Shown here piece after piece: positions 10,475 through 35,600 of a DNA stretch of 64,000 bases. The stretch spans positions 640,001 through 704,000 of the forward strand of contig CM000431.1 in the NCBI GenBank assembly GCA_000165345.1, in the 5' to 3' direction. The notes below the pieces were generated by a model. The model was not told the DNA's origin. It made no database searches and saw nothing but the letters and a program-made list of their open reading frames with translations. The translations under genes and the position numbers were made by a program. Position 1 is the first letter of the stretch; each line of letters opens with the position of its first letter.

Positions 10475-10604
10475 ATATTACTAAAATAGACTTTCAATAG
10501 GATAGACAAACTAAAACTTTAATCTCAAAATTTATGGTGGCTAGTGCCACCTGTTCCTTCAACCGTTAGTCCGATGTTTTTAGTAATTAAAGCTTGATCA
10601 TTAA

Positions 10605-11102
<498 letters not shown>

Positions 11103-11401
11103 TTAGAAACAAAAAAAAAAATAAAGAAGTGGACAGCATCAAAAGTAATTAAACATTAATATTGTACAGACACATTTATGTATTTAGCTTAAAATAATAC
11201 TCGATTTTCGAAATTTTGATTTATGAGTTTCTATCCTTAAATTTATATTTAAAAATAAACAAAATATGGTAAATATCAAACTCAAGATTTTATATTTAGT
11301 TTAAGATTGAAATTGTTGGTTCACTTTTTATTCTAGTTGAAATTCAAAGAAAAAATGTAAAATTAGTTTGCGCGCGTAGAATTTAGTCGTTACTTTTTAG
11401 A

Positions 11402-12231: not shown

Positions 12232-12267
12232 CGTTTATTTTCTCAACTAGCACTTTTTTTCTTTTAT

Positions 12268-12287
12268 TATGCGCTCTATATTTGCGC
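12268..12287. promoter_or_regulatory. Two E2F-like GCGC core sites (TATGCGC, TTTGCGC) about 40 bp upstream of the TBC gene.
   Basis: ttatGCGCtctatatttGCGCtcat. Confidence 0.3.
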
Positions 12288-12325
12288 TCATCTTTTTTTC
12301 AATCAAATAACTTTATTATGGGTTA

Positions 12326-14574: not shown

Positions 14575-14830
14575 TCTTATGAAATAAGATAAATATAGAA
14601 ACTCAATTATTCGACTTAATTCAAAGCTATTGCTTGATAGCCAATAATAATTATCAGTAACCTTTAAACATTTCGTAATTGCCTACTAAATAAATAATAT
14701 TAATATAGGGCTATTAAAATAATTAAAGTTTGGCCCAATATAAATAATGAGTTCTAATCTAGATAAGTTGTAAAGCAGACAAAGTATTCATCTGAGGGTT
14801 GGGAATATAATATATGTACATATATTTATA

Positions 14831-17917: not shown

Positions 17918-20900
17918 ATGTCAAACAATACTTTTGAGGAAGTCCCAATTAGGGGCACAATTAAATTACTGCATGATAAGCTTTCTTTGCTATTCCGTTT
18001 GAGTATCTTAGAATCTACTGAGATCCTTCTAGAAATTGATGAGTCAATTTCAAAATGTGACGGCTATTGTATCTCATCTTGCGCAGAAGTTATTGTTCCA
18101 CCAATAATCATGGCAATTCACAATTGTATAAGGAATAAACTTCATCCAACTAATGAATTAAGTGGTTCGAATCATAACAAAAATTTAAATACGAAATCTT
18201 CTCTGCAATTGGAAGAACTATTAAAAATTCTCTTGAATGTCTTGCAAAAAATGAATTCAAAGACATCAAAAATCATTTTTAGTCGCATATCAAATGCTTT
18301 TTTTGATATACTTTACGTAATAACTGAAGTTCTACGTATATTTATTTACGAAAGAAATGAATTTATTATTGAATATAGTATTAAAATTGCACATCTAGAC
18401 TTTAATATTTTTTGGGAATATTGGGAACATAAAAATACAAATACGAATATAAATCAACATCTAATTATCCCTGTAATTATACAATTTTTATTATCAATAG
18501 CAATTCCCAGCAAAAATGAATTCAATTATTCAAAAGAAACCCAAACTTTAGCTCTAAAGTTATTATCTGAAATTCCAGGCATTATTGAAAATAATGATTT
18601 ATTAATAAAAGTGTACCCTGGAGTTATTCAAAGATTAAGCATACAACTAATTAATTCTATTGAGAAAGGTAGCTCCAAAAAACTAATAGAATTATCATTA
18701 TTTGCAATAATTGAATGGATAAGTAATTGTCTTTCTAACTTGAATCATGAAACGAAAAATATCTGCTCGAACATGGAAAATATTAAAAACACAGCTAAAA
18801 TATTGAACTATATTATCAAGTATAAAACATTAGAATTGAACTTAGATTGCTCATATAAAAGTGGTAATATAAATTATTTAAATGATAGCGTATGCATGTT
18901 AAAAGTTAAATCACTTTTCGCAAGTATTACAAGAATGTGTTTTACAGATTTATTTGATATTTTTTACGATAGCTTTGACGAACTTTTAATAACTTCTCTT
19001 GACTTTTTAATTTCATTGAAATCCGAAGGCAATTATAATAATCCACTAATTGATAATGTTCTTAATTCGATTTCAAAAAATCAAAGTAACAGAAAGATGA
19101 GGTCATTTTTTTCAAATTATTCTCGAAAGTTTGGAATTAATTTTGATCAAAGTAACACGGAAAAATTTACTTCGGTTGAACTTAATGAAGAAAATAATTT
19201 AACAGACTTTATTCGTAAACTAACTTTATATATTGGCTTCCATAAAACAGAAAATCAATTTTTTAAGCATATAATTTCCACATTTTGTGCAGAAAAAGCC
19301 TTCAACTTTTTTCTTATCATACTAATATCTAATCTAAACCTAACAATGTACGAAAAATCAATTAAAGATTCAAAGAAAAATTTTAGCTTCAATTTTAAAA
19401 ACCGATCGTTAAATAAGGAAAATTATATTCTGAAAGCAATCGATTTAACAGAAAGAACGAGCAATAATATATTCCAAAACTATTCTTATAATATTCCAAA
19501 TAAGAATGAGAGTATTATATCCAATGACAAACTGGAAGCTTTTCAGCTATATGGTGACTTATTCACCTTAACTTTTTTCAATATTAAGAGATTTGGGTTT
19601 GAGAAATCAAAAATGATTTCAAGCTTATTTATTAAATCAATTTCAATTTCAATATTAGATTTGAACTATGAAAAAATGGAGTGTAAATATATTCTTCAAT
19701 GTATTACGCAACATTTTGTAAAACTTTGTAATAGTGAGAGAGATAAACATATTCCTTTACAACATTTTATTTTATATATCTTAGTATGTAATGCCACGCA
19801 ACTCATTTTAAATCAATCAGTATTTGGCAATCCTCTATATAACGAACTGCCGAATTTTGAAACAAAAAATTTGCCAAATATTATAATTAGTTGGTTCAAC
19901 TTTGCTATTGAGGAATTAAGTATAGAACTTATTCAAGAGAGTATGTCAAATTATACAGAAATTAATAGAAATATTTTATTAATTCTTCTGGGAAATCTAC
20001 TATTAATTGCGAGAAATATTGGATTAGATGGAGAAATTTTTATTAAAAAACTTAATAAAGTCATAACGCAATTAATATCACTATATGGCTATGGCTCACC
20101 AATTACGAAGAAAATTGCAGCTTATATTCTAAACCAAATTTTTCTAATGTTAGGTTATTCATCATATAAATTTTCAATTAATACGATTATTAATGAATAT
20201 TCTCTTGAAATCATTAGGTCACTAGAAATTATGTACTATAAAGGCTATTCCGAGGAAAAAGTTGATCTAATCTTGACGGCTCTTCAGCATTGTAAATTGG
20301 GATTCATTTTGGAACTATCAGATTTAATTGAAAAGTTTAATGATATAAATATAAATAATAATCCTTGGATATTTGAATTTATTGCAATAATCACAAAACG
20401 TATAGCAAACTGCATTCTAACATATTGGGATAATTTTTCCTTTCATAAGATATTCAAGAACGCACAAATTTCTGCTTTCAAACAGAAACTTGAATCTTTC
20501 CAAACATTAAATACCACAATTAAAGAAATATACTATGAATATTTCTTAGATTATATAACTTCACAAGAGAATGACATTCCTAACTTTTATCCAACACAAA
20601 ATTTTATAAATAGTATTAAAAGCCAAAATATAGATCATTTAGATCTTTTTGAACAGGAATTACTGGAGGAAATTGATATTTCTAATGAAATTTCAAAAAT
20701 TCGTAAAGTTATTGAAAGAATGATTAATATTATCTATTCATATACATCAGAGAGTGATGAGAAGAATTTTAGCATTCAGGATCATCGATATTTGTCTACA
20801 TATTCATTATTAAATTGTATTTTTATACTTTCCACTGAGACAACTTGTTTATTTCCCTACGCAAATATGATAATTCCTGGGATAATTAATCAATGGATGG

Positions 20901-21523
20901 CTATAATAAGCAACATAAGAAGCGATAACTTTGAAAAATCTAAAATTGAAGCAATCAAATCACGTGAGCTTTGCCAAACAAATATTATTGTAATACAATT
21001 AATCATTTCATGCACTGAATTTGCAATTAAAGTTCTAGAAGACAAATTAATTCCATTGATTACAGAATTTATTGAATTTATTTTTTCAAGCCATGAAGCC
21101 ATTACACTTATGGATGATAGAGAGTCAGAATTAAATTCGGAATTTCAAAAAATGTGTATATCTACATTAGAAGTTCTCTACTATTTCACCAAATTTTACC
21201 TTAAATTGAATTCAGCTGAAATCAAGTTTGAAACGTTAAACAACATAGTAAACTTACTAATATCTCCAATTAATTCGTTCCTTTCAGTTAAATGGAGAAT
21301 TGTTGTCTCAAAAACCATATTTCATATATATTTTAAATTCCCATGTATTATTAATTCCAAGTTAATCGTTCAAAGTAAAAACTATAACACAACATGCCTA
21401 AAAGAAATAGTTATCATGATTAAATTAGCGGAAAATAACTTAACTGCAATTTTTAACAATATTAGTATTATTTCTGAAACTCGAGGAGAATTTAATTTAA
21501 AGTTGAAAATTAACAAATTTTAG
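17918..21523 (+). CDS. Large hypothetical protein, 1201 aa, Asn/Ile/Leu-rich, probably helical-repeat.
   Basis: 3.6-kb uninterrupted ORF. Confidence 0.7.
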   Translation: MSNNTFEEVPIRGTIKLLHDKLSLLFRLSILESTEILLEIDESISKCDGYCISSCAEVIVPPIIMAIHNCIRNKLHPTNELSGSNHNKNLNTKSSLQLEELLKILLNVLQKMNSKTSKIIFSRISNAFFDILYVITEVLRIFIYERNEFIIEYSIKIAHLDFNIFWEYWEHKNTNTNINQHLIIPVIIQFLLSIAIPSKNEFNYSKETQTLALKLLSEIPGIIENNDLLIKVYPGVIQRLSIQLINSIEKGSSKKLIELSLFAIIEWISNCLSNLNHETKNICSNMENIKNTAKILNYIIKYKTLELNLDCSYKSGNINYLNDSVCMLKVKSLFASITRMCFTDLFDIFYDSFDELLITSLDFLISLKSEGNYNNPLIDNVLNSISKNQSNRKMRSFFSNYSRKFGINFDQSNTEKFTSVELNEENNLTDFIRKLTLYIGFHKTENQFFKHIISTFCAEKAFNFFLIILISNLNLTMYEKSIKDSKKNFSFNFKNRSLNKENYILKAIDLTERTSNNIFQNYSYNIPNKNESIISNDKLEAFQLYGDLFTLTFFNIKRFGFEKSKMISSLFIKSISISILDLNYEKMECKYILQCITQHFVKLCNSERDKHIPLQHFILYILVCNATQLILNQSVFGNPLYNELPNFETKNLPNIIISWFNFAIEELSIELIQESMSNYTEINRNILLILLGNLLLIARNIGLDGEIFIKKLNKVITQLISLYGYGSPITKKIAAYILNQIFLMLGYSSYKFSINTIINEYSLEIIRSLEIMYYKGYSEEKVDLILTALQHCKLGFILELSDLIEKFNDININNNPWIFEFIAIITKRIANCILTYWDNFSFHKIFKNAQISAFKQKLESFQTLNTTIKEIYYEYFLDYITSQENDIPNFYPTQNFINSIKSQNIDHLDLFEQELLEEIDISNEISKIRKVIERMINIIYSYTSESDEKNFSIQDHRYLSTYSLLNCIFILSTETTCLFPYANMIIPGIINQWMAIISNIRSDNFEKSKIEAIKSRELCQTNIIVIQLIISCTEFAIKVLEDKLIPLITEFIEFIFSSHEAITLMDDRESELNSEFQKMCISTLEVLYYFTKFYLKLNSAEIKFETLNNIVNLLISPINSFLSVKWRIVVSKTIFHIYFKFPCIINSKLIVQSKNYNTTCLKEIVIMIKLAENNLTAIFNNISIISETRGEFNLKLKINKF

Positions 21524-21603: not shown

Positions 21604-22179
21604 ATGGATGCCAATAATATTGTTCCTGAAAATATAAAGCATATTCAACAACAAAGTCTTAACCCCACAACAACGCTTAATAAAAAATTAATATTTTCAA
21701 GTAACGAAAGGAATAATCTTTGGGACTTGTTTTCTAGTAATTTTTTATTATTTAAATTTTACCCATCAGGAAATGAAATTGAGGAAGAGCTCAAATCAAT
21801 CCATGAAATGATAAAAGTTTTCGAAAACTGGAAGTCACTGATTTCGACAAAGAAAATGTCCTTATTTGATTTTTGTAAAACTATTGAAAAATTCACATTT
21901 CATACAGAAACGCAAGATTACCGTTTGAGAACGGTATTTAACTACAAATCAATCAAAAGTGGGATGCATTCTAATATGAGCAATTACGAGTTTAGACCAA
22001 TCAGTTCAAAAGAGCATACTGATCAAAGAAATATAGTCGGCGATCAAAATGATGATTCAAAATCCATTAATTCCAATCAGAACTTAGACACTAGTTGTGG
22101 AATTGAGGAAAAGCTAAAGGCTAAAAGAGAACTGGCTTTGAAAAGAAGGAAACTACTTTTAACTAATAAAGTATTGTGA
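21604..22179 (+). CDS. Hypothetical protein, 191 aa, with a basic C-terminus (KLKAKRELALKRRK).
   Basis: ORF with an ATG; no confident homology. Confidence 0.45.
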   Translation: MDANNIVPENIKHIQQQSLNPTTTLNKKLIFSSNERNNLWDLFSSNFLLFKFYPSGNEIEEELKSIHEMIKVFENWKSLISTKKMSLFDFCKTIEKFTFHTETQDYRLRTVFNYKSIKSGMHSNMSNYEFRPISSKEHTDQRNIVGDQNDDSKSINSNQNLDTSCGIEEKLKAKRELALKRRKLLLTNKVL

Positions 22180-22448: not shown

Positions 22449-25400
22449 ATGTCCACAGCATTGGAGTTGAACTCTCCATTTAGCAGTAAAGAGTTAAAAA
22501 GAGTATTTAGTATCGAATTTGGCGTCCTTTCACCCGAACTAATACGTAAGTATTCCGTACTCGAGATTAAAGTATCAGATATTTATGAAAATGGAAGACC
22601 TAAATCAGGTGGGCTTAACGACCCATTGTTGGGCACAACAGACTATCATATTCTTTGCGAAACTTGTCATATGGATATAAAAACATGTCCTGGCCACTTT
22701 GCGCATATTGAGCTTGGAAAGCCCATGTTTCATATCGGATTTATTACTACAGTACTTAAGCTTCTCAGATGCGTGTGCTATGCATGCTCTAAGTTATTCG
22801 TTGATACATTAGATCCCAAGTTTAAACAAATAAAACGCATTAAGAATCCAAGACTTAGATTGAAGAAAATTCTAGAAATGAGAAGCTCTTCATCCAGATG
22901 TATAATTTCTAGTGATGGTTCTGGATGCGGGTTTGTCCAACCAACCTATTCGAAAGAAGGATATAATTTGTATATTAATCAAAATCAAGATGAAAACAGA
23001 ATTATTGACGATGAAAGTGTTGATTCGAAGAGGTTGCTAGCCGCAGAAGAGGTACTTACAATTTTTAAAAGGATATCTCACGATGACATGAAGATTCTTG
23101 GATTTGATCCTGTAAAATGTAATCCTTCTTGGTTTATTAATACGGTAATACCGATTCCTCCTCCAGCTGTTAGACCATACGTTCAATTCGGAAGCGATCG
23201 GAGCGAAGATGATTTGACTTTAAAACTACAACAAATAATCAAGTTGAATGAAAATCTTAAAAAACAGATTCGTATTGGGTCTCCTGAACATATTATTAGT
23301 GAAATGTCAACTGTACTTCAATATCATTTAATTACACTTATTAATAACGACTTACCTGGTTTGCCTCAATCTAGAACAAGGAGTAACAGGCCAATCAAAT
23401 CTCTCAGAGCACGTCTAAAAGGCAAGGATGGTCGCATACGCGGTAACTTAATGGGTAAAAGGGTAGATTTCTCTGCAAGAACAGTAATAACAGGCGATCC
23501 TAACTTAGCTGTCGACCAAGTTGGAGTTCCATATTCTATTGCTATGACACTTACTTATCCTGAAGTTGTTACACCATATAATATAGAAGAGCTAAAGGAG
23601 TTGGTGCAAAGAGGACCGCATGAATGGCCAGGAGCAACTAGTATTATTCAGGAGGACGGAACAAAGGTTGACCTAAGGTTTTCAAATACCTCAAATAATT
23701 CGAATAATATTCTTCAATATGGATGGAAGGTTGAAAGGCATATGAAGAATGATGATCTAGTGCTCTTCAACAGGCAGCCTAGTCTACATAAGATGAGTAT
23801 TATGGGTCATCGTGTAAAAATTTTACCTTATTCTACATTTAGACTTAATCTTTCGGTAACTTCGCCATATAATGCAGACTTTGATGGAGATGAAATGAAC
23901 CTTCACCTGGCGCAATCGCATGAGACCCGATCTGAAATCAAAAACTTGATGATGGTTCCGAGACAAATAGTTTCTCCTCAAGGTAACAAACCCGTAATAG
24001 GCATAGTTCAGGATTCATTACTTGGAATTTTTCTTCTAACGAGAAAATCAACCTTTTTAACTAGAGATAAATTTTTACAGCTCTTATTATGTATTCCTTA
24101 TTGGAACGGAAACATCCCTCCTCCTGCAATACTTAGGCCTCAGCCTTTATGGACTGGGAAACAGATTATTACAGTGCTACTTGCATTTACAACAGACTTG
24201 GGTGAGCCAATTGAATTGAATTTAATGCGAGATGGTAGTATTGTATCGATTAAGCAATCTAATAACTCTTCTAATACAGATAAAGATGATTCTAAAGAAG
24301 CTATAGTTAACAATCCTTGGATATCAGAGCTGGATAATCAAGTAATAATCCAGAAGGGAGAGCATATTTGCGGAGTACTCACAAAAAAAATTGCAGGGTC
24401 TTCTTCAGGTTCACTAATTCACATTTTATGGAATGAAATTGGCCCAGAAAAAACTGGATTGTTTTTGACGTATACTCAGATGGTAGTTAATACATGGCTT
24501 CTTGAGCACGGCTTCACTGTAGGATGTCAGGACATTCAACCACAAAATTATACCTTGGAAAAAATAATGAACTCTTTAGAAGGCTCAAAGTTACAAGTTC
24601 AACAAATTATCAGGCGCGCTCAGAAAGGTAAACTTGATTGTCAGCCAGGTAAGAGCCTAATTGAATCTTTTGAGGCTCAAGTTAATCAGGAATTGAATAG
24701 TGCGCGTGAGTTGTCTGGTACGATTGCAACTGAGAACCTCGATTCTTCTAAAAACAATATTGTTGCAATGGTCCAATGTGGAAGCAAAGGGTCAACTATA
24801 AATATTTCACAGATTATGGCATGCGTTGGGCAGCAAAATGTCGAAGGTAAACGTATTCCATTTGGGTTTAGGGATAGAAGCTTGCCACATTTTTTGAAAT
24901 ATGATTATGGGCCTGAAAGTCGTGGTTTTGTTTCGAACTCATATCTTTCAGGTCTTACACCCCAGGAAGTTTTTTTTCATGCTATGGGAGGCAGAGAAGG
25001 AATCATTGATACTGCTTGTAAAACTTCAGAAACAGGGTATATACAAAGAAGGCTAATAAAGGCAATGGAAGATTGTATGGTACAGTATGATAGAACTGTT
25101 AGGAATAGTAATGGCGACATTATTCAATTTCTTTATGGAGAAGATGGAATGGCAGGAGAGTTTATTGAGGACCAAGTTATCGAACTACTACAGATGGAGG
25201 CAGCAGTGTTCCAGCACAAGTATCGTCACAATCTTGAACATCCGAGATGGGGTTCTAGCTGGGCTGGTGTCCAACCTTCCTTGATAAAAAATCTACAATT
25301 TGATCTAGAATCTCAGAATATACTGAACTCCGAGTATAAACAACTTGTAACAGACCGCGAGCAGCTTGGGAAAGACATTTTCCCAGATGGTGAAACAAGA

Positions 25401-28136
25401 CAACATCTTCCGATTAATATCAATAGAATAATTCAAATGGCTCAACAAAAGTTTCCACAAAGGGTAAGTGATACGTCATCGAGCAAGGATTGGGGGCCAG
25501 TTTACATCATAAAAAAGGTTGAATCATTGCTTGATAAACTATTGCTTTGGAAGAACGTCGGGATTATCAATGATGAAGGCAATAAATCTAATTTTGTATT
25601 TGATAGTATTATTGCTGAAGTTCAAAAGAATGCCACAACTTTGCTAGGGATACATATTAGAAGCTCTTTAGCTAGTAAAAAAATATTAGAGGTTGATAGG
25701 CTTGGACCAACTGCATTTGAGTGGATACTTGGGGAAATTGAACATCAGTTTTATAGAAGTCTTGCACACTCCGGTGAGATGGTTGGCACTATAGCAGCAC
25801 AGTCAATTGGAGAACCTGCAACGCAAATGACATTAAATACCTTCCACTTTGCTGGTGTGGGCTCAAAAAATGTAACTCTCGGTGTTCCAAGGCTGAGAGA
25901 GCTAATTAATGTTGCAAAAAATGTTAGAACACCAACCTTAACTGTTTATCTTGAAAGCGGGATTGCAAACGACCAAGAACAGGCAAAAGATGTATTAACA
26001 TTATTAGAACATACGATGCTACAAAACATTACGACTATTGCGCACATTTTATATGACCCAGAACAAGACAAGACTATTGTCGAAGCAGATAAGAGTTGGG
26101 TTAGTGATTATTATGAATTTCCGGATGATGCGGATATTACAAGCAGACTTGGTACTTGGCTATTAAGAATTCAGTTGAATAACAAGCTTGTTACTGACAA
26201 AAAACTGTCAATGAAAGAAATTGGTGACAAAATTTTAATGGAATTTAGTAAAGATGAGTTGGATTGTATTTGGACTGACGATAACTCAGATGAGCTTGTA
26301 TTAAGACTCCGAATTAAAAACATTGAACCTACCAATAATATTCGCGATAATATACATTCTTCTGAAGAAAACGACTCGATTTCTCCCTCAATTACGTCAG
26401 GAGTTGAAGAGCATAAATTCCTGGAAAAACTAATGACGGAATGTCTTTCTCAAATTACCCTTAGAGGGATAAACAATATTAAGAAGGTTTATATGAAAGA
26501 GGAACAGGTTTCTAGATATGATAGTGTTAGTCAGAAAATGGTGAGAGACAACCAATGGGTGCTTGACACAGATGGGTGTAATCTTGAAGCAGTGCTTTGC
26601 CACACAGCAATAGATAGTACAAGAACAATCTCAAACGATATAACTGAAGTCTTTAGTGTATTAGGGATCGAAGCCGTAAGAAGAGCTCTTCTTAGAGAGT
26701 TGAGAACAGTAATTTCATTTGATGGAAGTTATGTAAACTATAGGCACTTAGCACTACTCTGCGATAATATGACTCAAAAGGGCCACTTAATGAGTATAAC
26801 AAGACATGGTATCAATAGAGTTGATAAGGGCCCGCTTCAAAAGTGCAGTTTTGAAGAGACAGTTGAAGTCTTAATGGATGCTGCTATGTTTGGAGAAACT
26901 GATTATCTTAATGGCGTAAGCGAAAATGTTATGCTTGGGCAGCTTGCTCCATATGGAACTGCATGCTTTGACGTCCTAATTGACCCTGATAAACTTAGGG
27001 ATACTGCTACTCATCTTGAAATTCATGGAGAATTTGCCAAACTCGGGAAATTCTCTACGCTTTCTCAAACAACAAGATCTTATTCCGACAGCGGGGCATT
27101 TGAATCGGATTCTTTTGAATCTCCAATGTCGCCTCTTTCTCCAATGTCTCCGCTTTACCAATCTTATGAACCAATGTCCCCTATGATTTCTGGTCAATTT
27201 TCTCCTGTTCAAATGACTCCAAGATCGCCAATGAGTCCAGTTTCACCAGGAGGGATATTCAGCCCAGTTCCATATTCTCCTATGAGTCCATCCTCACCAC
27301 TTATGGATTACACACCAACTTCTCCCATCTATGCAGCAAGTAGCCCAACATACAATACAGAGGTTTCTGAAAGGGCTAGAAAAAAGTATAAGGTTAACAA
27401 TACACTTAGCTCATACTCACCATCTTCACCATTAAATTCAGACAACAAAATAAGTAACATAAGTCCAGATTTATCACCAACATCACCGCATTATTCACCA
27501 ACATCTCCACATTATTCACCAACATCTCCACATTATTCACCAACATCACCACACTATTCACCAACATCACCACATTATTCACCAACGTCACCACATTATT
27601 CACCAACGTCACCACATTATTCACCAACGTCACCACATTATTCACCAACATCACCACATTATTCACCAACATCTCCACATTATTCTCCAACATCACCACA
27701 TTATTCGCCAACATCTCCACATTATTCTCCAACATCGCCTCACTACTCTCCTACCTCGCCACATTATTCACCAACATCACCGCATTACTCTCCAACATCA
27801 CCACACTATTCTCCATCATCACCGCATTATTCTCCAACTTCGCCTCAATACTCACCCACATCACCCAACTACAACCCCGCATCGCCAAATTATTCTCCCA
27901 CCTCACACTACTCTCCTACCTCGCCAAATTACAATCCTACCTCTCCGAATTATTCTCCATCTTCACCCAATTATATTTCAAATAACTCTGGCTCTCCTGG
28001 GTACTCGCCATCGTCACCTCAATATGATCCTATAGCGGTTGCTTCAGTCCCTAGATCTCCATCGTATTCTGTTGGAAAAATGGTAGACGCTGAATATTCA
28101 CCGTCTTCCCCTCTAGACGAAACAAAGAATTCATAA
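22449..28136 (+). CDS. RPB1: DNA-directed RNA polymerase II largest subunit RPB1, 1895 aa, intronless.
   Basis: All conserved RPB1 regions are present (zinc-binding N-terminus, NADFDGDEMN active site, bridge helix, trigger loop) plus a long C-terminal heptad domain. Confidence 0.97.
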   Translation: MSTALELNSPFSSKELKRVFSIEFGVLSPELIRKYSVLEIKVSDIYENGRPKSGGLNDPLLGTTDYHILCETCHMDIKTCPGHFAHIELGKPMFHIGFITTVLKLLRCVCYACSKLFVDTLDPKFKQIKRIKNPRLRLKKILEMRSSSSRCIISSDGSGCGFVQPTYSKEGYNLYINQNQDENRIIDDESVDSKRLLAAEEVLTIFKRISHDDMKILGFDPVKCNPSWFINTVIPIPPPAVRPYVQFGSDRSEDDLTLKLQQIIKLNENLKKQIRIGSPEHIISEMSTVLQYHLITLINNDLPGLPQSRTRSNRPIKSLRARLKGKDGRIRGNLMGKRVDFSARTVITGDPNLAVDQVGVPYSIAMTLTYPEVVTPYNIEELKELVQRGPHEWPGATSIIQEDGTKVDLRFSNTSNNSNNILQYGWKVERHMKNDDLVLFNRQPSLHKMSIMGHRVKILPYSTFRLNLSVTSPYNADFDGDEMNLHLAQSHETRSEIKNLMMVPRQIVSPQGNKPVIGIVQDSLLGIFLLTRKSTFLTRDKFLQLLLCIPYWNGNIPPPAILRPQPLWTGKQIITVLLAFTTDLGEPIELNLMRDGSIVSIKQSNNSSNTDKDDSKEAIVNNPWISELDNQVIIQKGEHICGVLTKKIAGSSSGSLIHILWNEIGPEKTGLFLTYTQMVVNTWLLEHGFTVGCQDIQPQNYTLEKIMNSLEGSKLQVQQIIRRAQKGKLDCQPGKSLIESFEAQVNQELNSARELSGTIATENLDSSKNNIVAMVQCGSKGSTINISQIMACVGQQNVEGKRIPFGFRDRSLPHFLKYDYGPESRGFVSNSYLSGLTPQEVFFHAMGGREGIIDTACKTSETGYIQRRLIKAMEDCMVQYDRTVRNSNGDIIQFLYGEDGMAGEFIEDQVIELLQMEAAVFQHKYRHNLEHPRWGSSWAGVQPSLIKNLQFDLESQNILNSEYKQLVTDREQLGKDIFPDGETRQHLPININRIIQMAQQKFPQRVSDTSSSKDWGPVYIIKKVESLLDKLLLWKNVGIINDEGNKSNFVFDSIIAEVQKNATTLLGIHIRSSLASKKILEVDRLGPTAFEWILGEIEHQFYRSLAHSGEMVGTIAAQSIGEPATQMTLNTFHFAGVGSKNVTLGVPRLRELINVAKNVRTPTLTVYLESGIANDQEQAKDVLTLLEHTMLQNITTIAHILYDPEQDKTIVEADKSWVSDYYEFPDDADITSRLGTWLLRIQLNNKLVTDKKLSMKEIGDKILMEFSKDELDCIWTDDNSDELVLRLRIKNIEPTNNIRDNIHSSEENDSISPSITSGVEEHKFLEKLMTECLSQITLRGINNIKKVYMKEEQVSRYDSVSQKMVRDNQWVLDTDGCNLEAVLCHTAIDSTRTISNDITEVFSVLGIEAVRRALLRELRTVISFDGSYVNYRHLALLCDNMTQKGHLMSITRHGINRVDKGPLQKCSFEETVEVLMDAAMFGETDYLNGVSENVMLGQLAPYGTACFDVLIDPDKLRDTATHLEIHGEFAKLGKFSTLSQTTRSYSDSGAFESDSFESPMSPLSPMSPLYQSYEPMSPMISGQFSPVQMTPRSPMSPVSPGGIFSPVPYSPMSPSSPLMDYTPTSPIYAASSPTYNTEVSERARKKYKVNNTLSSYSPSSPLNSDNKISNISPDLSPTSPHYSPTSPHYSPTSPHYSPTSPHYSPTSPHYSPTSPHYSPTSPHYSPTSPHYSPTSPHYSPTSPHYSPTSPHYSPTSPHYSPTSPHYSPTSPHYSPTSPHYSPTSPHYSPSSPHYSPTSPQYSPTSPNYNPASPNYSPTSHYSPTSPNYNPTSPNYSPSSPNYISNNSGSPGYSPSSPQYDPIAVASVPRSPSYSVGKMVDAEYSPSSPLDETKNS
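27474..27990 (+). repeat. 21-bp tandem coding repeats specifying the RPB1 CTD: about 17 consecutive YSPTSPH heptads, then about 8 degenerate ones (YSPTSPQ, YSPTSPN, YNPASPN, YNPTSPN...).
   Basis: Units are tcaccaacatc(a/t)cc(a/g)ca(t/c)tat with synonymous third-position variation between copies; proximal degenerate SP-rich repeats start near 27118. Confidence 0.9.
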
Positions 28137-28173: not shown

Positions 28174-30933
28174 CTAAGAAATTAATAATTTATTTTCTTG
28201 AATAATATGTTCCGTTATCCATGCTCTTTGACTAGTATTAATAATTTTTTTTTGAACAGCTTGCTCTAAAGCATTTTGAACTGAGAGCGATACTGTATTT
28301 TCAATTTTCTCCGAACAAATAACTGGAATTTTCCCAGATTGTTCAATTATGAGTTTGCATTTGTTTATTATTCTAGGCTCTCCGTCAACTTGAAAAGGGA
28401 GTTGTCTAGGAATATATACGACTATATGGCTACCTTGGCACAACTTAATTGGCTCTGTGAGCCCAACTTGTAGTTGGGTTAAATGAAAAAGAGATCTAAT
28501 ACCTACAACTTCTATTAGCCCATCATCAATCTTTTGCAACTGGAACTTATTAATTCCAAACTTAGTGGGCTCATCATTTATTTCTAAGTTATTTAATTTG
28601 GGGGACAAAGATAACCCTTGTTTAAAGGCTTTAGAAAACCATGATTTGAGTAAATTAGTCGATCTCTTCCTTCCTTCTCTCAATTCTAATCGAGTATTAT
28701 CTGTTTCATCGCATTCTGAAAATTCTGAATTCGAGCAAGATAAGTATCCAGAATTCTTGAAATTATCTATTGAAAATGACATTGATCTATCTGACAAGCC
28801 TTTCCCCATTTTTCTGCTAGTTAAAGTGGTAGTCCTTCTAATTGTATTGGTATCTCTATTTTTGCGTGGTTTTTTAAAAAATTGATTTGAAATTTTCCAA
28901 AGATTTACTCCGCCTGAAAAACTAGGAATATTACAAATAATGAGGCCTTCAAGCCTATTTTCTCTTGAATTAAAATTATTATGAATTTCAGTGATAGATT
29001 TATTATTTACTTTATTTTTAATGGAGTTCCCAAGCCCAAAAATGTCTGCAGCTGGAATTAAGAACCAATTAATATATTTTTTAATAATAAAATTATAAAT
29101 ATTCATTAAATGATGATATCCTTGAAAATAATCGTCATTTATTGATCTGTTTCCTAGTAAGTTTATGGACTCTTCGCTTTTGCTTGAAAAAGACCCTCCT
29201 ACTTGATTTGAAATAGAAACCTCCTTTCCATCACAAAGTATTTTTAAACCATCTAATTGAATGCTTTTGTTAAAGAAATCTCTAAATCCTACTTCACCAT
29301 AAACTAGTTGGTTTCCAAGCCTGCTTTTGAAGTGTTGAGGATATGCTTCTCTTAAGTTATGGAACTTTAATGCAATTCGCGCAGCAATACCAATATCTAA
29401 ATAGTTGATAAATGTAGATGAGAACAACATATTGTGATTATCATGAGTATTATTAGAATCTCCATTTTTTAAATCCCATGCAGTACATTTCCAAATATCC
29501 ATTTGCTTAATATTCGAAGTGCATATTCTTTTTAAAAAGTTCAGAATGTCACCGTTAAACGTAACATCCCATCCCAATGTTCTGCTGAGATCATTTCCAG
29601 TCCCTAATGGAAGGACTGCAATAGGAGGGAGACTATTTGAATTTACTCCATAAATTTCTCTGCATCTATCTATTACCCATCTTACTGTTCCGTCCCCTCC
29701 ACATATAAGAATCATCAATTTTTTCATTTTTGCAAGATGCTTGAATAAATATAATGCTTCATCTGGGCCTTTTGAGCTTTGAATATCAACTACTTGAATT
29801 GGATTTAAATAAATATGTAGATTTTTTATTAATCCTTGTCCAAGGTGTCCGCCTGACTTTGTGTTTACAAATACAAGTAAAGGCTTTCCTGAATTAGTAT
29901 ATAAAAAGTCATCAAAAAACTTTAATTTTTTTTTAATTAAATTAGATTTATGGAACATCTGTATATAATGAGAAATACTTCTTTTACTTGGAGAAGATGT
30001 TAAGTTAGTTTTAATAACATCGGTGGGATTAGTATCCAAATTATTTGCTGAAACATTAATTAAACTATTTGGATTGAAAATATTTTTTTCCTCATTCTTT
30101 AAAGTAGAGAAGTTAGTACTTAGTGTTGAGTTGCCACTCTTTTCTAAGCTATGGAGTTCAAATACAAAAGAGTTTGGAGGTAAAATAATATACTTGAGCG
30201 TTCCAAAGTCGCACTGCTTCTGAGTAATTTTGTTATTCTCAGCGCATTCATCATGGTATGTTCGGTTACACCAAATGCACTTTTGTCCGTATAAGCCGAA
30301 TGGAGAGAAACAGACAGTTAGACAAATTGAACAAATAGCTCCAGAGTGTAAATTGCCTTTCATTAATACATGGCAATGAATTTTTTGTTGAGGAATTAAG
30401 CCATCTAAATTATTCGATTCATCATTATTTAAAAATGTTTTATTCTTAAATTGGATAAGTGAGCCACTTTTAATAAAATAATTCGATGAACATTCATCCT
30501 TGCAATATTCTGAGTCTGACTGCATTATACAGTGCATATGCGAAATCCGCTTACAAATCAAGCACTGCCAACCTTCATAGTTTCTCATTAATAAAAAGCG
30601 TTTTTTTATAATTCCAGAACACTTCGTACAATACTTAGGATATTCAGGAGTTTCATATAAAACCCAATTATGTCTCAATTTAATGTGCCTCAAAATACTG
30701 TTATTACTATTGTTCTTTTGTAAATAATATAATATAGCTATTGTTACAATTGAAGCAATTAATGTAGTAAATATGAGAAAATACCAATGGCCTGCTTTTA
30801 ATGCAGATATATGTCTTTTTATGATGTTTAGTGCGATTTTTATTACATTTGATGCTTCGCGGAATGGAATAAATTTATTTATAATTTCAATTACAAGTGA
30901 AAAGTAAGTTTCATATTTTGAGTAGGCTATCAT
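28174..30933 (-). CDS. Diacylglycerol kinase with C1 (cysteine-rich) domains and DAGKc/DAGKa domains.
   Basis: C1-like HCHVLMKGNLHSGAICSICLTVCFSPFGLYGQKCIWCNRTYHDEC; catalytic LVFVNTKSGGHLGQ...ILICGGDGTV...PIAVLPLGTGNDLSRTLGWD. The track starts at TTG 30945; first ATG at 30933. Confidence 0.85.
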   Translation of the reverse strand: MIAYSKYETYFSLVIEIINKFIPFREASNVIKIALNIIKRHISALKAGHWYFLIFTTLIASIVTIAILYYLQKNNSNNSILRHIKLRHNWVLYETPEYPKYCTKCSGIIKKRFLLMRNYEGWQCLICKRISHMHCIMQSDSEYCKDECSSNYFIKSGSLIQFKNKTFLNNDESNNLDGLIPQQKIHCHVLMKGNLHSGAICSICLTVCFSPFGLYGQKCIWCNRTYHDECAENNKITQKQCDFGTLKYIILPPNSFVFELHSLEKSGNSTLSTNFSTLKNEEKNIFNPNSLINVSANNLDTNPTDVIKTNLTSSPSKRSISHYIQMFHKSNLIKKKLKFFDDFLYTNSGKPLLVFVNTKSGGHLGQGLIKNLHIYLNPIQVVDIQSSKGPDEALYLFKHLAKMKKLMILICGGDGTVRWVIDRCREIYGVNSNSLPPIAVLPLGTGNDLSRTLGWDVTFNGDILNFLKRICTSNIKQMDIWKCTAWDLKNGDSNNTHDNHNMLFSSTFINYLDIGIAARIALKFHNLREAYPQHFKSRLGNQLVYGEVGFRDFFNKSIQLDGLKILCDGKEVSISNQVGGSFSSKSEESINLLGNRSINDDYFQGYHHLMNIYNFIIKKYINWFLIPAADIFGLGNSIKNKVNNKSITEIHNNFNSRENRLEGLIICNIPSFSGGVNLWKISNQFFKKPRKNRDTNTIRRTTTLTSRKMGKGLSDRSMSFSIDNFKNSGYLSCSNSEFSECDETDNTRLELREGRKRSTNLLKSWFSKAFKQGLSLSPKLNNLEINDEPTKFGINKFQLQKIDDGLIEVVGIRSLFHLTQLQVGLTEPIKLCQGSHIVVYIPRQLPFQVDGEPRIINKCKLIIEQSGKIPVICSEKIENTVSLSVQNALEQAVQKKIINTSQRAWITEHIIQENKLLIS

Positions 30934-31333: not shown

Positions 31334-32644
31334 ATGAAATATTTATATTCAAGCGATAATTTTGGTACGATTAAAGAATATAAAACTACCAAGTTTCTTA
31401 ATTCAGATTGTTCGTTTATCGATTCAATAGTCGAATACTCAAATGAGTCTATGAAAAAAATTACATATATTTATGCAGAAAAAAAGCTTAATTCGAATGA
31501 AGAAAGTCAACCAAAGGATGATATGTTCATTGGTTATTCTGATGGTACAATAAATGTAATTTCAATTCCACTTAAAAGTCAATCAGATATTCCAAAAATT
31601 ACATTTTTGGTCAATGGCAAGGTAATTTTTATAAAAGATATAACTTTTAATTATCCAAATGAGTCAGAAAAAGGAAATAAAGTAATTATAGTAGTAACTG
31701 AGTCTAGAAAATTATACTTATTTAGGCTGCCACAAATTAATAAAGAGAATCCATATTTTCAATCAACAATTAACTTCAATGTTTGTAATGAAAACGCTTG
31801 TCTAACTAATCCTGATTTGATTATTGAAACATTTGATCTCCCATGTAATGATCTAAAATGTGTTGCATATAATAAAACAAAAAATTCAATTGCATTTGGT
31901 GGTTACGAGTCAGATATTAAGATGATGAATTTAGAGAGTATGAAGTTAACTTGGAGTTCAAAGAATATACAACTTAAAATGCTTAAGAATAGAATGCCAA
32001 TTGATGTTACGAAATTAGCGTTTTTACAGGAAAATCCAGAAATATTATTATGCGGTACAGGGTATGGTGAAGTTCGTCTCTACGCTCCTCAATTACAGAG
32101 ACGACCAATTATTAATTATGAAATTTGGGAAGAAAAATCATCAATAACAGAGCTAGAAATTATTAAAAACTGGGCAAAGTTAAAATCAAATAGAAATTCA
32201 TATGGATCAGTAGTTGCTATTGGAAATAATAAAGGCTCTGTATTACTTTTAAAAATTACGGATACGCAAGTAGATATTTACAAAAGATCGAGTTTTCGTT
32301 CAGAAAGCCGTGATTCTGCGTTAAATAAAAAAAAAATACTTCCATTAATTAGAGAATATGTCTCATTTAAAATTTCTACTGACAAATTTAAAAAAAATAA
32401 GTTAAATAATATTAAAAGTAACCATAAAATAGAAATTTCAGCATTAGGGAATTTTAAGGGTATAATGGGAGGAATTACTACAATGAACAGCTTTAAATTA
32501 AGCGATAAAGAACATAAGGAGAGCATATTCCTTGCAATTGGTGGCCCAGGGCGATATATTTATATATTTGAAGTTAAAAAAAGAAGATTAGTTAGAAAAA
32601 TTTTTACTTCGCAAAAGATAGCATTTATTAAAATTTTAGAGTAG
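31334..32644 (+). CDS. WD-repeat ribosome biogenesis protein Nsa1/WDR74.
   Basis: N-terminal SSDNFGTIKEY is close to yeast Nsa1 SCVDSGSIKEV; C-terminal GGPGRYIYIFEVKKRRLVRKIFTSQKIAFIKILE parallels GGLDRYVRIFDIKTNKMLVKVYVGSRINFIVML. Confidence 0.55.
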   Translation: MKYLYSSDNFGTIKEYKTTKFLNSDCSFIDSIVEYSNESMKKITYIYAEKKLNSNEESQPKDDMFIGYSDGTINVISIPLKSQSDIPKITFLVNGKVIFIKDITFNYPNESEKGNKVIIVVTESRKLYLFRLPQINKENPYFQSTINFNVCNENACLTNPDLIIETFDLPCNDLKCVAYNKTKNSIAFGGYESDIKMMNLESMKLTWSSKNIQLKMLKNRMPIDVTKLAFLQENPEILLCGTGYGEVRLYAPQLQRRPIINYEIWEEKSSITELEIIKNWAKLKSNRNSYGSVVAIGNNKGSVLLLKITDTQVDIYKRSSFRSESRDSALNKKKILPLIREYVSFKISTDKFKKNKLNNIKSNHKIEISALGNFKGIMGGITTMNSFKLSDKEHKESIFLAIGGPGRYIYIFEVKKRRLVRKIFTSQKIAFIKILE

Positions 32645-32673: not shown

Positions 32674-35600
32674 CTAAATAATATTAATTTTCCCCTCAAC
32701 CAATTTAAACTCCAAAAAATGGTGTTTTCTACCAAATAAGAATGTATAGAACTTTGTTAACAATCTTTGATACATATTCTCGGAAAAAAAATTCATATCA
32801 CCGGAATCTAATATATTTCCGTTTGCTGAATTAAGATAATTTTGCATGTTATCACTAGAAATTTCATTTTCAATTTCCAATCTAATAGAATCGAAATTGG
32901 TATAATAGAATTTGTCAAACATTTTTGAAAGAATTTTATAAGTGTATTTACTAGAAATATGAGAATACCTTAAAATATGGCTTTCTGAAGCAACCATTTC
33001 AGAAACAATATTCTGCGATTTTAAAGCAAAAAGCTGAGGAATTAAGTAGTTAATTAGTTTCTTTTTATATATCAACAATGTCCTGAGGAATACTCCAATA
33101 ATCGTCAATTCTTCAGTATCATAATACCTAATATTTAATACATTACATATACGTTTTCCAATATGAATAGAAGAATTATCTTTTTCTCTTTTAGTATTCA
33201 TTAATATTGGAAAGATTAAATTTGAAAATAGTCGAGTTCCCAAAAATAAATAGGAAGCGGAGTTTAAAATAATGTTGAGACAGCAAATTAGTTCAAGAGT
33301 AGTATAAGAAGAAGGCTTATAGTATTTGCTTGCCAAAATCTCTTTCATACGCACAGATGTAATACTATTTAATATATGCTTTTTGAATGACGAATTCAAG
33401 CCAATAAATAACTTCTTTTTATTAAGATCAAAGAATATTACTTTATCATTAAATTCTATCAATGTTTCACCAAAAACAAACCAGTATTTGAGAAATTGTC
33501 GCTCATCTGAGATACTTAAAATGAAAGATAGCATATTCAATGCAAATTCAGAAATAATTTTTTTATGTGAAATAGTGCACTCGAGTAATGGTTTATCATT
33601 ATCAGAATCCCTAATTTGCATGTTTTCATCAAATACTGAAATTTTAACTCTATCTAATACATAGGTATATTGTAATAGCAGATAAAGAATGTCACAAATA
33701 ATATGATTCAGTTTTTTTGAACAGTATTGATCAAATGCCAATTTAGAAATTCCATTCAAGCATTCGTAAAGGCTAGAGAAATTATTATCGATATTCATTT
33801 TAGCTGTCAAACTATTGATATTTGCGATCACTTTGTTAGTTAGGTTATTTAGTAGTGTAACATTAAATAGCTTTCTAGATACTAATTCAATTGAAAATAT
33901 TACTGAAAAATGGATGCTTTCCATATTGTACAAAATACCATTATATATCTTGTATAAAAAATCACAGAAATTACCGTCAACATTGGAAAATAAACTCGAA
34001 TTTTCCTTTTTAAATATTAATTTAATAAAATCAAAAAACTCCGTAGAGGTATTGTTACAAGATTCAATTACTTGATTTAAGTATAACATAATCGCCTCAA
34101 TTAAAAGCTCAAAAAAGTTGATTTTAAGTGGCCTTAAAATATTAAAAATTAGGATATTAATACTGTAATAATTTGAATCCATAAACAAATCTAAAATCAA
34201 TTTAAGAATTTGGTTATATGTAACAATTTGAAGTCCAATTTTATTTTCAAAATTAGGCAAATACAGTATAATTTTTGTTGTTAGTAATGAATTATTCAAA
34301 TACACAAATAATTTTTTTTGTTCATCGTATTGGCTATCTTTAGATAAATGATTAATAATTAGTGTGATAATATCCAATTTATGTTTATTATTTTGTAATT
34401 TTTCAACAAATTTAATAGTCAAATCTGCATCTTTCGATAAATTTTTCAGTAAATCATTTAAAATATGGGAAATACAACTACCATCAGATAAAATTAGGTT
34501 TTTATATGTTTTAACCGGAAATCTTTCATTCTTCAAAAAAATGTAATATAATAGCTCAAAAGAAAATATTGATATTAAATTCTGATTAATGGATTTCAGG
34601 AATTTTAATACTAACCAATAGTTGTTCCATATCTTTGAAAAATTTAATAGGTTGGTTATACTTTTTTCTTTAGCAATTATTTGTTTAATTAATAAAGCTT
34701 TATATTTTGGAAAAAGCTTAAATAGTTTTGTAAATTTTCTAAATTGATCATTTTTCACCAGTAAATGAATATCATTTATTTTTGCTTGATCAAACTTAAT
34801 AGTTAGAAATTTAAGAACAAGCAGATGTATTATTACAGCCACATGTCTTATACTTTCTTGTTCTAAACTTTGAGTGTAAATATATAATAGTGCTTTATAA
34901 CAATACATTGGATGATTTAAAAAAACTTTAATGTGATGTTCACTTATAACCGGTATCTTGTATTCGTAGTTAGTTATTAAATTTTCCGTTAAGTAGTAAA
35001 TTTCTAGATATGAAATTAAGTTGGTTTTTTTGCAAGAATTGTTTCGAATATAAATCCGCTCAATCATATGCAATAATGGTAAAATATCACTAAATGGTAA
35101 AATATCTAAAAACATTTTCCACCTTTTTAATGAAAAATCAGAATTAAATTTAATTAAGTAAATTGGAACCTTCTCTTCATATTCAAGTAACTTCGAAATA
35201 TTAACTTTTGTTGAAACAAGAGCTCGGACTTTATGAATAATTTGAATATAGCTGCGGATTGTTGAAACAATTGATAATAAAGATTTGATTGAACTTAAAC
35301 TTCTAGGTAGCAAATTTTTTATAGATAAAATAGAAATTAATGATAAGCAAATCAAAATTTTGGTTCTTTGATTAACATTCGCAGAATTAATAATTAATTT
35401 AGATTTATATCCATTATTAAAAAGCAAGTCAGCTGAACAATAAATAAGTAAATCGTATTTATTGAAATTATTGAAAACTAAATCAGGATATCTCAGATCT
35501 GATTTAATAAATTGATTATTGAAAAACAAGTCAAATATTGTATTTTCGTAGTTTGAATCTTTAACAGTGTAATAATAACTGCTTGAAAAACACTTTTCTA

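What the first reader, a model, noticed from the sequence alone, without database searches (positions are those of the whole stretch)
27474..27990. RNA polymerase II CTD built from about 17 identical YSPTSPH heptads (His at position 7)
The canonical heptad is YSPTSPS; here position 7 is His in every one of about 17 consecutive repeats, and degenerates to Q/N only at the distal end. The DNA copies differ at synonymous third positions (tca/tct, cca/ccg/cct, cat/cac). The array is therefore not a very recent slippage expansion and is held at the peptide level by selection. A uniformly His7 CTD replaces the Ser7 phospho-site with a residue that cannot be phosphorylated, which has implications for Ser7-dependent snRNA/Integrator-type functions in this lineage.
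Basis: seen in the sequence. Interest (0 to 1): 0.6.

Follow-up and report, generated by a model that had tools for sequence, protein, structure and literature searches.

The report
Cryptosporidium parvum Pol II His7 tail
This is the real, already-sequenced tail of the main RNA polymerase II subunit of the gut parasite Cryptosporidium parvum, whose seven-residue repeat ends in histidine instead of serine: a lineage-specific spelling of a well-known domain rather than a new kind of element.

Summary
Window 22449..28136 (+) is one intronless 1895-aa ORF with all seven RPB1 Pfam domains. Its C-terminal domain holds 17 consecutive His7 heptads (LSPTSPH, 15 x YSPTSPH, YSPSSPH; nt 27471..27827). Q7/N7 heptads and a degenerate tail follow.

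The window is Cryptosporidium parvum: three neighbouring proteins match Iowa II entries exactly.

Repeat differences are 11 synonymous variant types against 1 non-synonymous. The C. hominis array peptide is identical despite 32 synonymous differences and two unit gains or losses. Across seven His-dominant taxa, position 7 is His in 107 of 108 proximal heptads. Peptide-level selection is therefore well supported, and assembly collapse is unlikely for C. parvum.

Two corrections apply:
- His did not replace Ser. The basal C. serpentis is mainly Asn7, C. xiaoi (and the start of the C. bovis array) mixes Asn and His, and the distal C. parvum heptads keep Asn7. His7 most likely spread from Asn7 (AAT to CAT).
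- A lineage-specific position 7 is usual in Apicomplexa (Ala, Val, Lys, Thr).

The functional consequence for Ser7 was not testable here. Verdict: a real, ordinary-to-mildly-curious, publicly known gene feature.

The parts
22449..28136 (+). [quoted passage not shown]
   Evidence: A single ORF. Pfam RNA_pol_Rpb1 domains 1-7 match at E = 2e-100 to 3e-35, and PF05001 (C-terminal repeat) scores 77 bits. Best protein hit is C. bovis RPB1 at 89% identity. The exact protein is found on 4 contigs longer than 1 Mb. Neighbouring proteins are exact matches to C. parvum Iowa II.
27117..27413 (+). Ser/Pro-rich linker between the polymerase core and the heptad region (SPMSPLSPMSPL ... YTPTSPIYAASSPTYN ... 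RARKKYKVNNTLSS)
   Evidence: Translation. An 18-bp tandem repeat lies at 27120..27156. The linker is conserved in C. bovis and the other Cryptosporidium species.
27414..27470 (+). First, isolated degenerate heptad YSPSSPL followed by a 12-residue spacer (NSDNKISNISPD)
   Evidence: Translation and coordinates. Present in all intestinal species compared.
27471..27827 (+). His7 array: LSPTSPH + 15 x YSPTSPH + YSPSSPH (17 units of 21 bp)
   Evidence: Eleven distinct 21-mers among the 16 Tyr-initiated units. Eleven synonymous against one non-synonymous variant types. Peptide identical to C. hominis.
27828..27971 (+). Distal non-His heptads: YSPTSPQ, YSPTSPN, YNPASPN, YSPTSH (6 residues, lacks Pro6, shifts the register), YSPTSPN, YNPTSPN, YSPSSPN
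   Evidence: The same order of distal units occurs in C. hominis and C. meleagridis, and in C. ubiquitum and chipmunk genotype I apart from the first unit (YSPTSPH in C. ubiquitum, absent in chipmunk genotype I). C. canis has a similar series.
27972..28133 (+). Degenerate C-terminal tail: YISNNSGSPG, YSPSSPQ, YDPIAVASVPRSPS, YSVGKMVDAE, and the terminal YSPSSPLDETKNS
   Evidence: It contains the only Ser-Pro-Ser-Tyr (Ser7-like) context in the whole CTD.

Best explanation
The feature is the genuine C-terminal domain (CTD) of RPB1 of Cryptosporidium parvum, built on a lineage-specific heptad, YSPTSPH. Shown: the gene, the array, its peptide-level conservation, and its distribution in the genus. 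Inferred (function): it works as every CTD does. It is a disordered, repetitive landing pad whose Tyr1, Ser2-Pro3, Thr4 and Ser5-Pro6 residues are all retained, so that Ser5 and Ser2 phosphorylation by CDK7- and CDK9-type kinases can recruit capping, elongation and 3'-end factors. Position 7 carries no serine, so no Ser7-phosphate mark can exist on any canonical heptad. Inferred (origin): the genus started from an Asn7 heptad (YSPTSPN). A single A-to-C change (AAT to CAT) made a His7 unit. That unit spread through the proximal array by unit duplication, loss and gene conversion in the ancestor of the C. felis / C. canis / C. ubiquitum / C. meleagridis / C. parvum / C. hominis clade. The distal heptads kept Asn7. 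His7 is now held by purifying selection as tightly as the canonical residues, presumably because the parasite's own CTD-binding proteins have adapted to it. Unit number still drifts by slippage around 16-20.
For: Identity: RPB1 domains 1-7 and the CTD repeat family. The window is C. parvum. The locus is syntenic in 10 other Cryptosporidium taxa. Reality of the array: the identical 1895-aa protein occurs on 4 contigs longer than 1 Mb, and three C. hominis assemblies give the same length. Selection: 11 synonymous against 1 non-synonymous variant types among units, p = 5e-6 against a 27% synonymous expectation. C. parvum against C. hominis shows 32 differences in the 357-nt array, all synonymous. 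A unit-level alignment resolves these into 2 unit indels plus 14 substitutions, with the total still 17. In 108 proximal heptads from 7 taxa position 7 is His 107 and Asn 1, with codons CAT 72 and CAC 35; position 4 is less conserved (T 102, S 5, A 1). A published estimate for the C. hominis/C. parvum C-terminal extension is omega = 0.021 (PMC3646058). Polarity: the RPB1-core tree places C. serpentis basal, then C. bovis + C. xiaoi, then the His-dominant clade. Among the parsed Y[S/N]PxSPx heptads, C. serpentis has 11 Asn7 and 3 His7 and C. xiaoi has 7 Asn, 6 His and 4 Lys. C. xiaoi is arranged in blocks of DNA-identical units. C. bovis starts SPTSPN-YSPTSPN. Distal Asn7 units are shared by all intestinal species. 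Ongoing turnover: three identical adjacent units in the window, and a 2-unit difference between two C. meleagridis assemblies. Context: the other apicomplexan arrays read here each have their own position-7 residue, namely Ala, Val, Lys or Thr.
Against: No biochemical data exist here. Ser2/Ser5 phosphorylation of this CTD, and the absence of any modification on His7, are inferred from conservation and from general CTD knowledge. Why His rather than Asn is retained is unexplained. The polarity (Asn7 ancestral) rests on one gastric species (C. serpentis) and the C. bovis/C. xiaoi clade. C. muris, C. andersoni and C. baileyi were not obtained, and the outgroups do not share either residue. Unit homogenisation by gene conversion can mimic some of the apparent conservation.
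Confidence: 0.85

Rival explanations
1. His7 is an adaptive gain of function. Seventeen to twenty imidazoles spaced every seven residues would make the CTD pH-sensitive or metal-binding, or would provide a phospho-histidine site. This would change condensate behaviour or recruit a lineage-specific reader that replaces Ser7-phosphate signalling.
For: Position 7 is as invariant as Tyr1, Ser2, Pro3, Ser5 and Pro6 in 108 proximal heptads from 7 taxa despite frequent CAT/CAC changes. His7 is very rare elsewhere: 22 of about 6,350 heptads in 322 CTD-bearing proteins gathered by searches that favoured His, and it is never the dominant residue in any of them. The spread of His7 coincides with one clade.
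Against: There is no evidence for any reader, modification or pH/metal effect. The sister lineages function with Asn7 or mixed Asn/His arrays, and C. meleagridis tolerates an Asn7 unit inside the His array. Position 7 is the most freely varying heptad position across eukaryotes (PMC9451162).
Confidence: 0.1
2. His7 is a selectively neutral filler. One variant unit was fixed by concerted evolution alone (unequal exchange or gene conversion), and the apparent conservation reflects homogenisation rather than selection on histidine.
For: Asn to His is a single nucleotide change. Block-wise, DNA-identical units occur in C. xiaoi and C. felis. Unit gain and loss occurred between C. parvum and C. hominis and between C. 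meleagridis assemblies. Each apicomplexan lineage with an array has a different position-7 residue.
Against: In C. parvum, C. hominis, C. ubiquitum and C. canis the units have diverged substantially at synonymous sites (mean 2.5-4.0 of 21 nt), yet they show no non-synonymous change at position 7. Homogenisation strong enough to erase non-synonymous variants would also erase the synonymous ones.
Confidence: 0.04
3. The array length or uniformity is an assembly artefact (collapse or mis-join of near-identical 21-bp units).
For: Short-read assemblies do break at this array: the C. bovis contig ends inside it and the annotated protein is 'partial'. The C. ryanae contig and two Logan contigs also end there. 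Two C. meleagridis assemblies differ by two identical units.
Against: The identical 1895-aa protein is on four contigs longer than 1 Mb. Three independent C. hominis assemblies give the same unit number with different synonymous patterns. The longest run of DNA-identical units in the window is 3 (63 bp), and most units are distinguishable.
Confidence: 0.01

Closest known systems
Canonical RNA polymerase II CTD (YSPTSPS; 26 repeats in budding yeast, 52 in human)
   Same: Same position at the C-terminus of RPB1 after a Ser/Pro-rich linker. Same 7-residue period. Tyr1, Ser2, Pro3, Thr4, Ser5 and Pro6 are identical. It matches Pfam PF05001.
   Different: Position 7 is His in 17 proximal units and Gln or Asn in the distal ones. 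No canonical heptad has Ser7, so a Ser7-phosphate mark is impossible.
Plasmodium CTD with expanded YSPTSPK heptads (Kishore et al. 2009, J Mol Evol 68:706; cited in PMC4362643; not readable here)
   Same: An apicomplexan RPB1 with a lineage-specific position-7 residue amplified as a block of near-identical heptads (7 Lys7 heptads in P. gaboni, 6 in P. vivax). Repeat number varies between related species.
   Different: Lys7 rather than His7. The Plasmodium array is shorter and embedded in a much longer degenerate region. Lys7 can be acetylated or methylated in animals, whereas no modification is known for His7.
Ala7 and Val7 arrays of piroplasms, and Ala7 arrays of stramenopiles
   Same: Long, regular arrays in which every heptad has the same non-Ser residue at position 7: 16 Ala7 heptads in Theileria equi, 11 Ala7 in Babesia gibsoni, 14 Val7 in Babesia duncani. 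Stramenopile YSPTSPA arrays are described in PMC3646058.
   Different: A different residue. His is among the rarest position-7 residues in the sample gathered here, at 0.35% of heptads.
Asn7 / mixed Asn-His CTDs of C. serpentis, C. bovis and C. xiaoi
   Same: Orthologous gene at a syntenic locus, with the same heptad apart from position 7.
   Different: Asn dominates, or alternates with His in blocks. These appear to represent the state from which the His7 array arose.
CTD-like heptad arrays in non-RPB1 proteins (for example P0370, 954 aa)
   Same: Contains 7 consecutive YSPSSPH heptads, the only other His7 run found.
   Different: It is not a polymerase subunit: the only Pfam match is the repeat itself. 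The array is internal and mixed with Ser7 heptads.

Membership tests
[quoted passage not shown] | Conserved polymerase domains 1-5, plus the Pol II-specific domains 6 and 7 | tested here: met
   PF04997, PF00623, PF04983, PF05000, PF04998, PF04992 and PF04990 all match well above their curated cut-offs. The top homologues are all RPB1.
RNA polymerase II CTD | Tandem heptads at the extreme C-terminus of RPB1 with the Y-S-P-x-S-P-x pattern in register | tested here: met
   22 heptads match Y[S/N]PxSPx. PF05001 scores 77 bits against a cut-off of 20.3. The DNA shows a 21-bp period with 18.7 copies.
RNA polymerase II CTD | Consensus Ser at position 7 (YSPTSPS) | tested here: not met
   Position 7 is His x17, Gln x2 and Asn x5 (including YSPSSPN, which runs straight into the tail). 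The only SPSY context is in the degenerate tail. Ser7 is not required for family membership: Ala7, Val7, Lys7 and Thr7 arrays are accepted CTDs (PMC3646058).
RNA polymerase II CTD | Reversible phosphorylation of Ser5 and Ser2 by CDK7-type and CDK9-type kinases during the transcription cycle | not testable with these tools
   Ser2-Pro3 and Ser5-Pro6 are invariant in 108 proximal heptads. No biochemical data are available. In Toxoplasma these marks are reported to depend on TgCrk7 and TgCrk9 (PMC13273687).
Ser7-phosphate-dependent snRNA/Integrator pathway | Ser7 in the heptads, together with Integrator and RPAP2 orthologues in the genome | not testable with these tools
   Ser7 is absent (tested). 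A literature search for INTS11 with Apicomplexa found nothing.
Recently expanded microsatellite-like coding repeat | DNA-identical or nearly identical units and length polymorphism | tested here: inconclusive
   Most units differ at synonymous sites (11 distinct 21-mers of 16). However, three adjacent units are identical, two unit indels separate C. parvum from C. hominis, and two C. meleagridis assemblies differ by two units.

The most novel reading that the evidence does not exclude
The most novel reading not excluded is this. The genus-internal switch from Asn7 to an invariant His7 is adaptive. It would create a pH-, metal- or phospho-histidine-responsive CTD (or a new docking determinant) read by a Cryptosporidium-specific factor, so that intestinal Cryptosporidium species run a CTD code with a position-7 signal of a chemically new kind.
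Probability: 0.08. Interest if true: 0.65.

Novelty: already known. Interest (0 to 1): 0.3.

Why it matters
The finding adds no new kind of element. It is still a clean natural experiment on the least understood heptad position. A whole clade of a medically important parasite runs Pol II with no Ser7 at all and with an invariant His in its place, while sister species use Asn or Asn/His mixtures.

There are practical consequences:
- Antibodies to Ser7-phosphate cannot work in Cryptosporidium.
- Antibodies raised against YSPTSPS may bind poorly.
- Short-read assemblies truncate this gene. The C. bovis RPB1 is annotated without its CTD.
- The statement in an older paper that C. parvum lacks a CTD is wrong.

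The genus-level series Asn7, then mixed, then His7, with number-conserving unit turnover, is a compact example of concerted evolution combined with purifying selection in an essential protein.

Tried and rejected
- Literature search for 'YSPTSPH'. All three hits are artefacts of phosphopeptide notation ('YSPTSphosP...'). No searchable paper spells out the His7 heptad.
- The two most relevant CTD surveys (Yang and Stiller 2014, PMC4000794; Kishore et al. 2009, PMC3622039) are not held. I therefore cannot show whether they describe it.
- Full-length RPB1 protein search. It returned only the truncated C. bovis protein from the genus. All other Cryptosporidium RPB1s later recovered by synteny, except C. 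serpentis, are more than 90% identical in the core and were not listed. The exact sequence is not in the collection.
- Search with linker plus CTD. It gave only short CTD fragments from unrelated eukaryotes and no Cryptosporidium.
- The workaround that succeeded: search with the convergent downstream diacylglycerol kinase, then fetch each orthologue's contig and read the adjacent RPB1 3' end.
- The antisense ORF 27406..27735 (109 aa) was rejected as a by-product of the stop-free repeat.
- Species-specific homogenisation of units was tested. It is clear for C. felis and C. xiaoi but not for C. parvum, C. hominis or chipmunk genotype I, so concerted evolution alone does not explain the conservation.
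- Literature searches for Integrator in Cryptosporidium or Apicomplexa gave nothing usable.
- Structure prediction was not attempted, because the CTD is a disordered low-complexity region.
Full report
**What is in the sequence**

Window 22449..28136 (+) is a single uninterrupted ORF of 1895 codons. Its product matches all seven Pfam RPB1 domains (E = 2e-100 to 3e-35). It also matches the RPB1 C-terminal repeat family PF05001 at 77 bits against a cut-off of 20.3.

The core is followed by a Ser/Pro-rich linker (27117..27413). The CTD then reads, in order:
- YSPSSPL plus a 12-residue spacer
- LSPTSPH
- 15 x YSPTSPH
- YSPSSPH
- YSPTSPQ, YSPTSPN, YNPASPN
- a 6-residue YSPTSH
- YSPTSPN, YNPTSPN, YSPSSPN
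- a degenerate tail ending YSPSSPLDETKNS

The 17 His7 units occupy 27471..27827. Tandem Repeats Finder gives a 21-bp period, 18.7 copies and a score of 546. No canonical heptad has Ser at position 7. The only Ser-Pro-Ser-Tyr context lies in the degenerate tail.

**Whose gene it is**

The three neighbouring proteins were looked up by exact sequence:
- the diacylglycerol kinase at 28174..30933 (-)
- the 191-aa ORF at 21604..22179
- the 436-aa WD-repeat-like ORF at 31334..32644

All are exact matches to Cryptosporidium parvum Iowa II entries EAK89058.1, EAK89061.1 and EAK89059.1, and to CPATCC_001268, CPATCC_001266 and CPATCC_001269. The exact RPB1 protein is encoded on four contigs longer than 1 Mb. 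The one shown is GCA_048859185.1 CM109963.1, 1,105,607 bp.

So this is the RPB1 gene of C. parvum, whose genome has been public since the Iowa II project. The C. hominis/C. parvum C-terminal extension has already been used in a published selection analysis, which estimated omega = 0.021 (PMC3646058).

I found no searchable paper that spells out the His7 heptad. The three 'YSPTSPH' text hits are phosphopeptide-notation artefacts. The two CTD surveys most likely to mention it could not be read. An older paper states that C. parvum lacks a CTD (PMC521075). The sequence shows that statement to be wrong.

**Is the array real?**

Short-read assemblies do break here:
- The C. bovis contig ends inside the array, and its RPB1 is annotated 'partial', stopping just before the CTD.
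- The C. ryanae contig ends there.
- Two Logan contigs end there.

For C. parvum, however, four contigs longer than 1 Mb carry the identical protein. Three independent C. hominis assemblies also have 1895 aa and the same 17 His7 units, with a different synonymous pattern. The longest run of DNA-identical units in the window is three, or 63 bp. Collapse is therefore very unlikely.

Two C. meleagridis assemblies do differ by exactly two units inside a run of identical 21-mers, giving 1888 and 1902 aa. That is either strain polymorphism or collapse in the older assembly.

**Selection**

Among the 16 Tyr-initiated His7 units there are 11 distinct 21-mers. Twelve variant types distinguish them, of which 11 are synonymous and one (T4S) is not. 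Only 27% of single-base changes to the consensus unit would be synonymous, so the binomial p is 5e-6.

Against C. hominis the gene differs at 138-140 of 5688 nt. Thirty-two of these differences fall in the 357-nt array, and all 32 are synonymous. A unit-level alignment explains the excess as one unit gain or loss in each lineage plus 14 substitutions. The total stays at 17.

Pooling 108 proximal heptads from seven His-dominant taxa gives the following:
- Positions 1, 2, 3, 5 and 6 are invariant.
- Position 4 is T 102, S 5, A 1.
- Position 7 is H 107, N 1, encoded by CAT 72 times and CAC 35 times.

Position 7 is usually the loosest heptad position. Here it is as constrained as the canonical residues.

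The array is also still turning over. This is shown by the three identical neighbouring units, the unit indels between species, and unit numbers that range from 7-8 (C. felis) to 20 (C. ubiquitum).

**Where His7 came from**

The convergent downstream diacylglycerol kinase served as a handle. With it I fetched the syntenic RPB1 3' ends of C. hominis, C. meleagridis, chipmunk genotype I, C. ubiquitum, C. canis, C. felis, C. xiaoi, C. serpentis and an unidentified Logan sample. The start of the C. bovis array came.

An RPB1-core tree gives this order: C. serpentis basal, then C. bovis + C. xiaoi, then C. felis, C. canis, C. ubiquitum/chipmunk, and C. parvum/C. hominis. Position 7 follows the tree:

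| Taxon | Position 7 |
|---|---|
| C. serpentis | Asn 11, His 3, one Ser, one Gln |
| C. xiaoi | Blocks N-HHH-NNN-HHH-N of DNA-identical units, then K/N/D |
| C. bovis | Begins SPTSPN-YSPTSPN |
| Crown clade | Uniformly His in the proximal array |
| All intestinal species | Same Asn7 units distally |

Asn (AAT) to His (CAT) is a single transversion. In C. serpentis one His unit differs from its Asn neighbours by only that base.

The most economical reading is that His7 displaced Asn7, not Ser7. It would have spread as one variant unit through the proximal array. This is an inference. It rests on one gastric species and one intermediate clade.

**Context in other organisms**

The other apicomplexans with regular arrays read here each have their own position-7 residue:
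- Ala in Theileria equi and Babesia gibsoni
- Val in Babesia duncani
- Lys in Plasmodium
- Thr in Gregarina niphandrodes

Coccidia are irregular.

I pooled 322 CTD-bearing proteins from three searches, one of which used the His7 array itself against 1.84 billion representatives. His occupies position 7 in 22 of about 6,350 heptads and is never the dominant residue.

The only other His7 run is 7 x YSPSSPH in P0370, a 954-aa protein. Its sole Pfam match is the repeat itself, so it is not a polymerase.

His7 dominance thus looks confined to one Cryptosporidium clade. It is nonetheless one instance of a general and well-documented rule: position 7 is lineage-specific.

**How it most likely works**

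All residues that carry the established CTD functions are intact: Tyr1, Ser2-Pro3, Thr4 and Ser5-Pro6, along with the heptad register. I therefore infer a conventional Ser5/Ser2 phosphorylation cycle. That cycle is documented in the related Toxoplasma (PMC13273687). I also infer that there is no Ser7 mark.

Whether Ser7-dependent machinery such as Integrator or RPAP2 exists in this genome could not be examined with the tools and caps available. Literature searches gave nothing.

Why His in particular is retained remains unexplained. Co-adaptation of the parasite's own CTD-binding proteins is the conservative guess. A pH-, metal- or phospho-histidine-related function is possible, but there is no evidence for it.

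**Verdict**

The RPB1 CTD identity, the age of most units and the peptide-level selection all hold. The 'replacement of Ser7' and its functional implications are either not how the array arose or untested.

The feature is a real but already public gene feature of a well-studied parasite, and one more example of position-7 variation. The modestly new element is the genus-level Asn7 to mixed to His7 series, with number-conserving unit turnover. I found no description of that series in the searchable literature.

Noticed in passing
L015 and L016 (C. meleagridis, RPB1 on the minus strand at 9798..15464 and 9798..15506): Two assemblies of C. meleagridis encode RPB1 of 1888 and 1902 aa. They differ only by 4 versus 6 copies of one DNA-identical heptad unit (TACTCTCCAACATCGCCTCAC). 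This is either strain length polymorphism or collapse in the older assembly. C. meleagridis also has a single Asn7 unit (second unit) inside its His7 array.
   Followed up: partly
window 27891..27908: A 6-residue unit YSPTSH (lacking Pro6) in the distal CTD shifts the heptad register by one. The same short unit is kept at the same place in C. hominis, C. meleagridis and C. ubiquitum (YSPTSH), chipmunk genotype I (YSPTSN), C. canis (YSPSSN) and an unidentified Logan sample (YSPTSQ).
   Followed up: partly
L002 10981..11051 (C. bovis contig end); L012 (C. ryanae); L006 and L014 (Logan contigs): Short-read assemblies terminate inside the heptad array. As a result the public C. bovis RPB1 protein is annotated as partial and lacks its CTD entirely.
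   Followed up: yes
L011 (C. xiaoi RPB1, minus strand 9685..15246): The C. xiaoi array is built of blocks N-HHH-NNN-HHH-N in which all Asn units are DNA-identical and the His units nearly so (one of six differs at one synonymous base). This points to a very recent higher-order (multi-heptad) duplication, unlike the synonymously diverged C. parvum array.
   Followed up: partly
P0370 (954 aa, from the representative library; no genomic context): A non-polymerase protein carries an internal CTD-like array that includes 7 consecutive YSPSSPH heptads. Its only Pfam match is the RPB1 repeat itself. Several Mytilus MATH-domain or USP7-like proteins with CTD-like repeats also appeared.
   Followed up: partly
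literature: PMC521075 (2004): The paper states that C. parvum lacks a CTD and that no apicomplexan other than P. falciparum has tandem heptads. This window shows 22 in-register heptads in C. parvum, so that statement is outdated.
   Followed up: yes
window 27120..27156 and the surrounding linker 27117..27413: The linker ahead of the CTD has its own short repeat, SPMSPL-SPMSPL (18-bp period, 2.1 copies), and many Ser-Pro-Met and Ser-Pro-Val motifs. It is conserved in C. bovis and C. serpentis.
   Followed up: no
window 17918..21523 (+), 21604..22179 (+), 32674..38037 (-): Three syntenic ORFs flanking RPB1 (1201 aa, 191 aa and about 1790 aa) have no Pfam match at E <= 0.001, although they are conserved in order across the genus.
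   Followed up: no
window 27406..27735 (-): A 109-aa antisense ORF overlaps the heptad array. It exists only because the reverse complement of the repeat unit has no stop codon in that frame.
   Followed up: yes
(protein collection): The full-length RPB1 search returned no Cryptosporidium RPB1 other than the truncated C. bovis entry, and the exact C. parvum sequence is absent from the collection. Yet the neighbouring C. parvum proteins are present, and RPB1 genes are called on the contigs of ten other Cryptosporidium taxa.
   Followed up: partly
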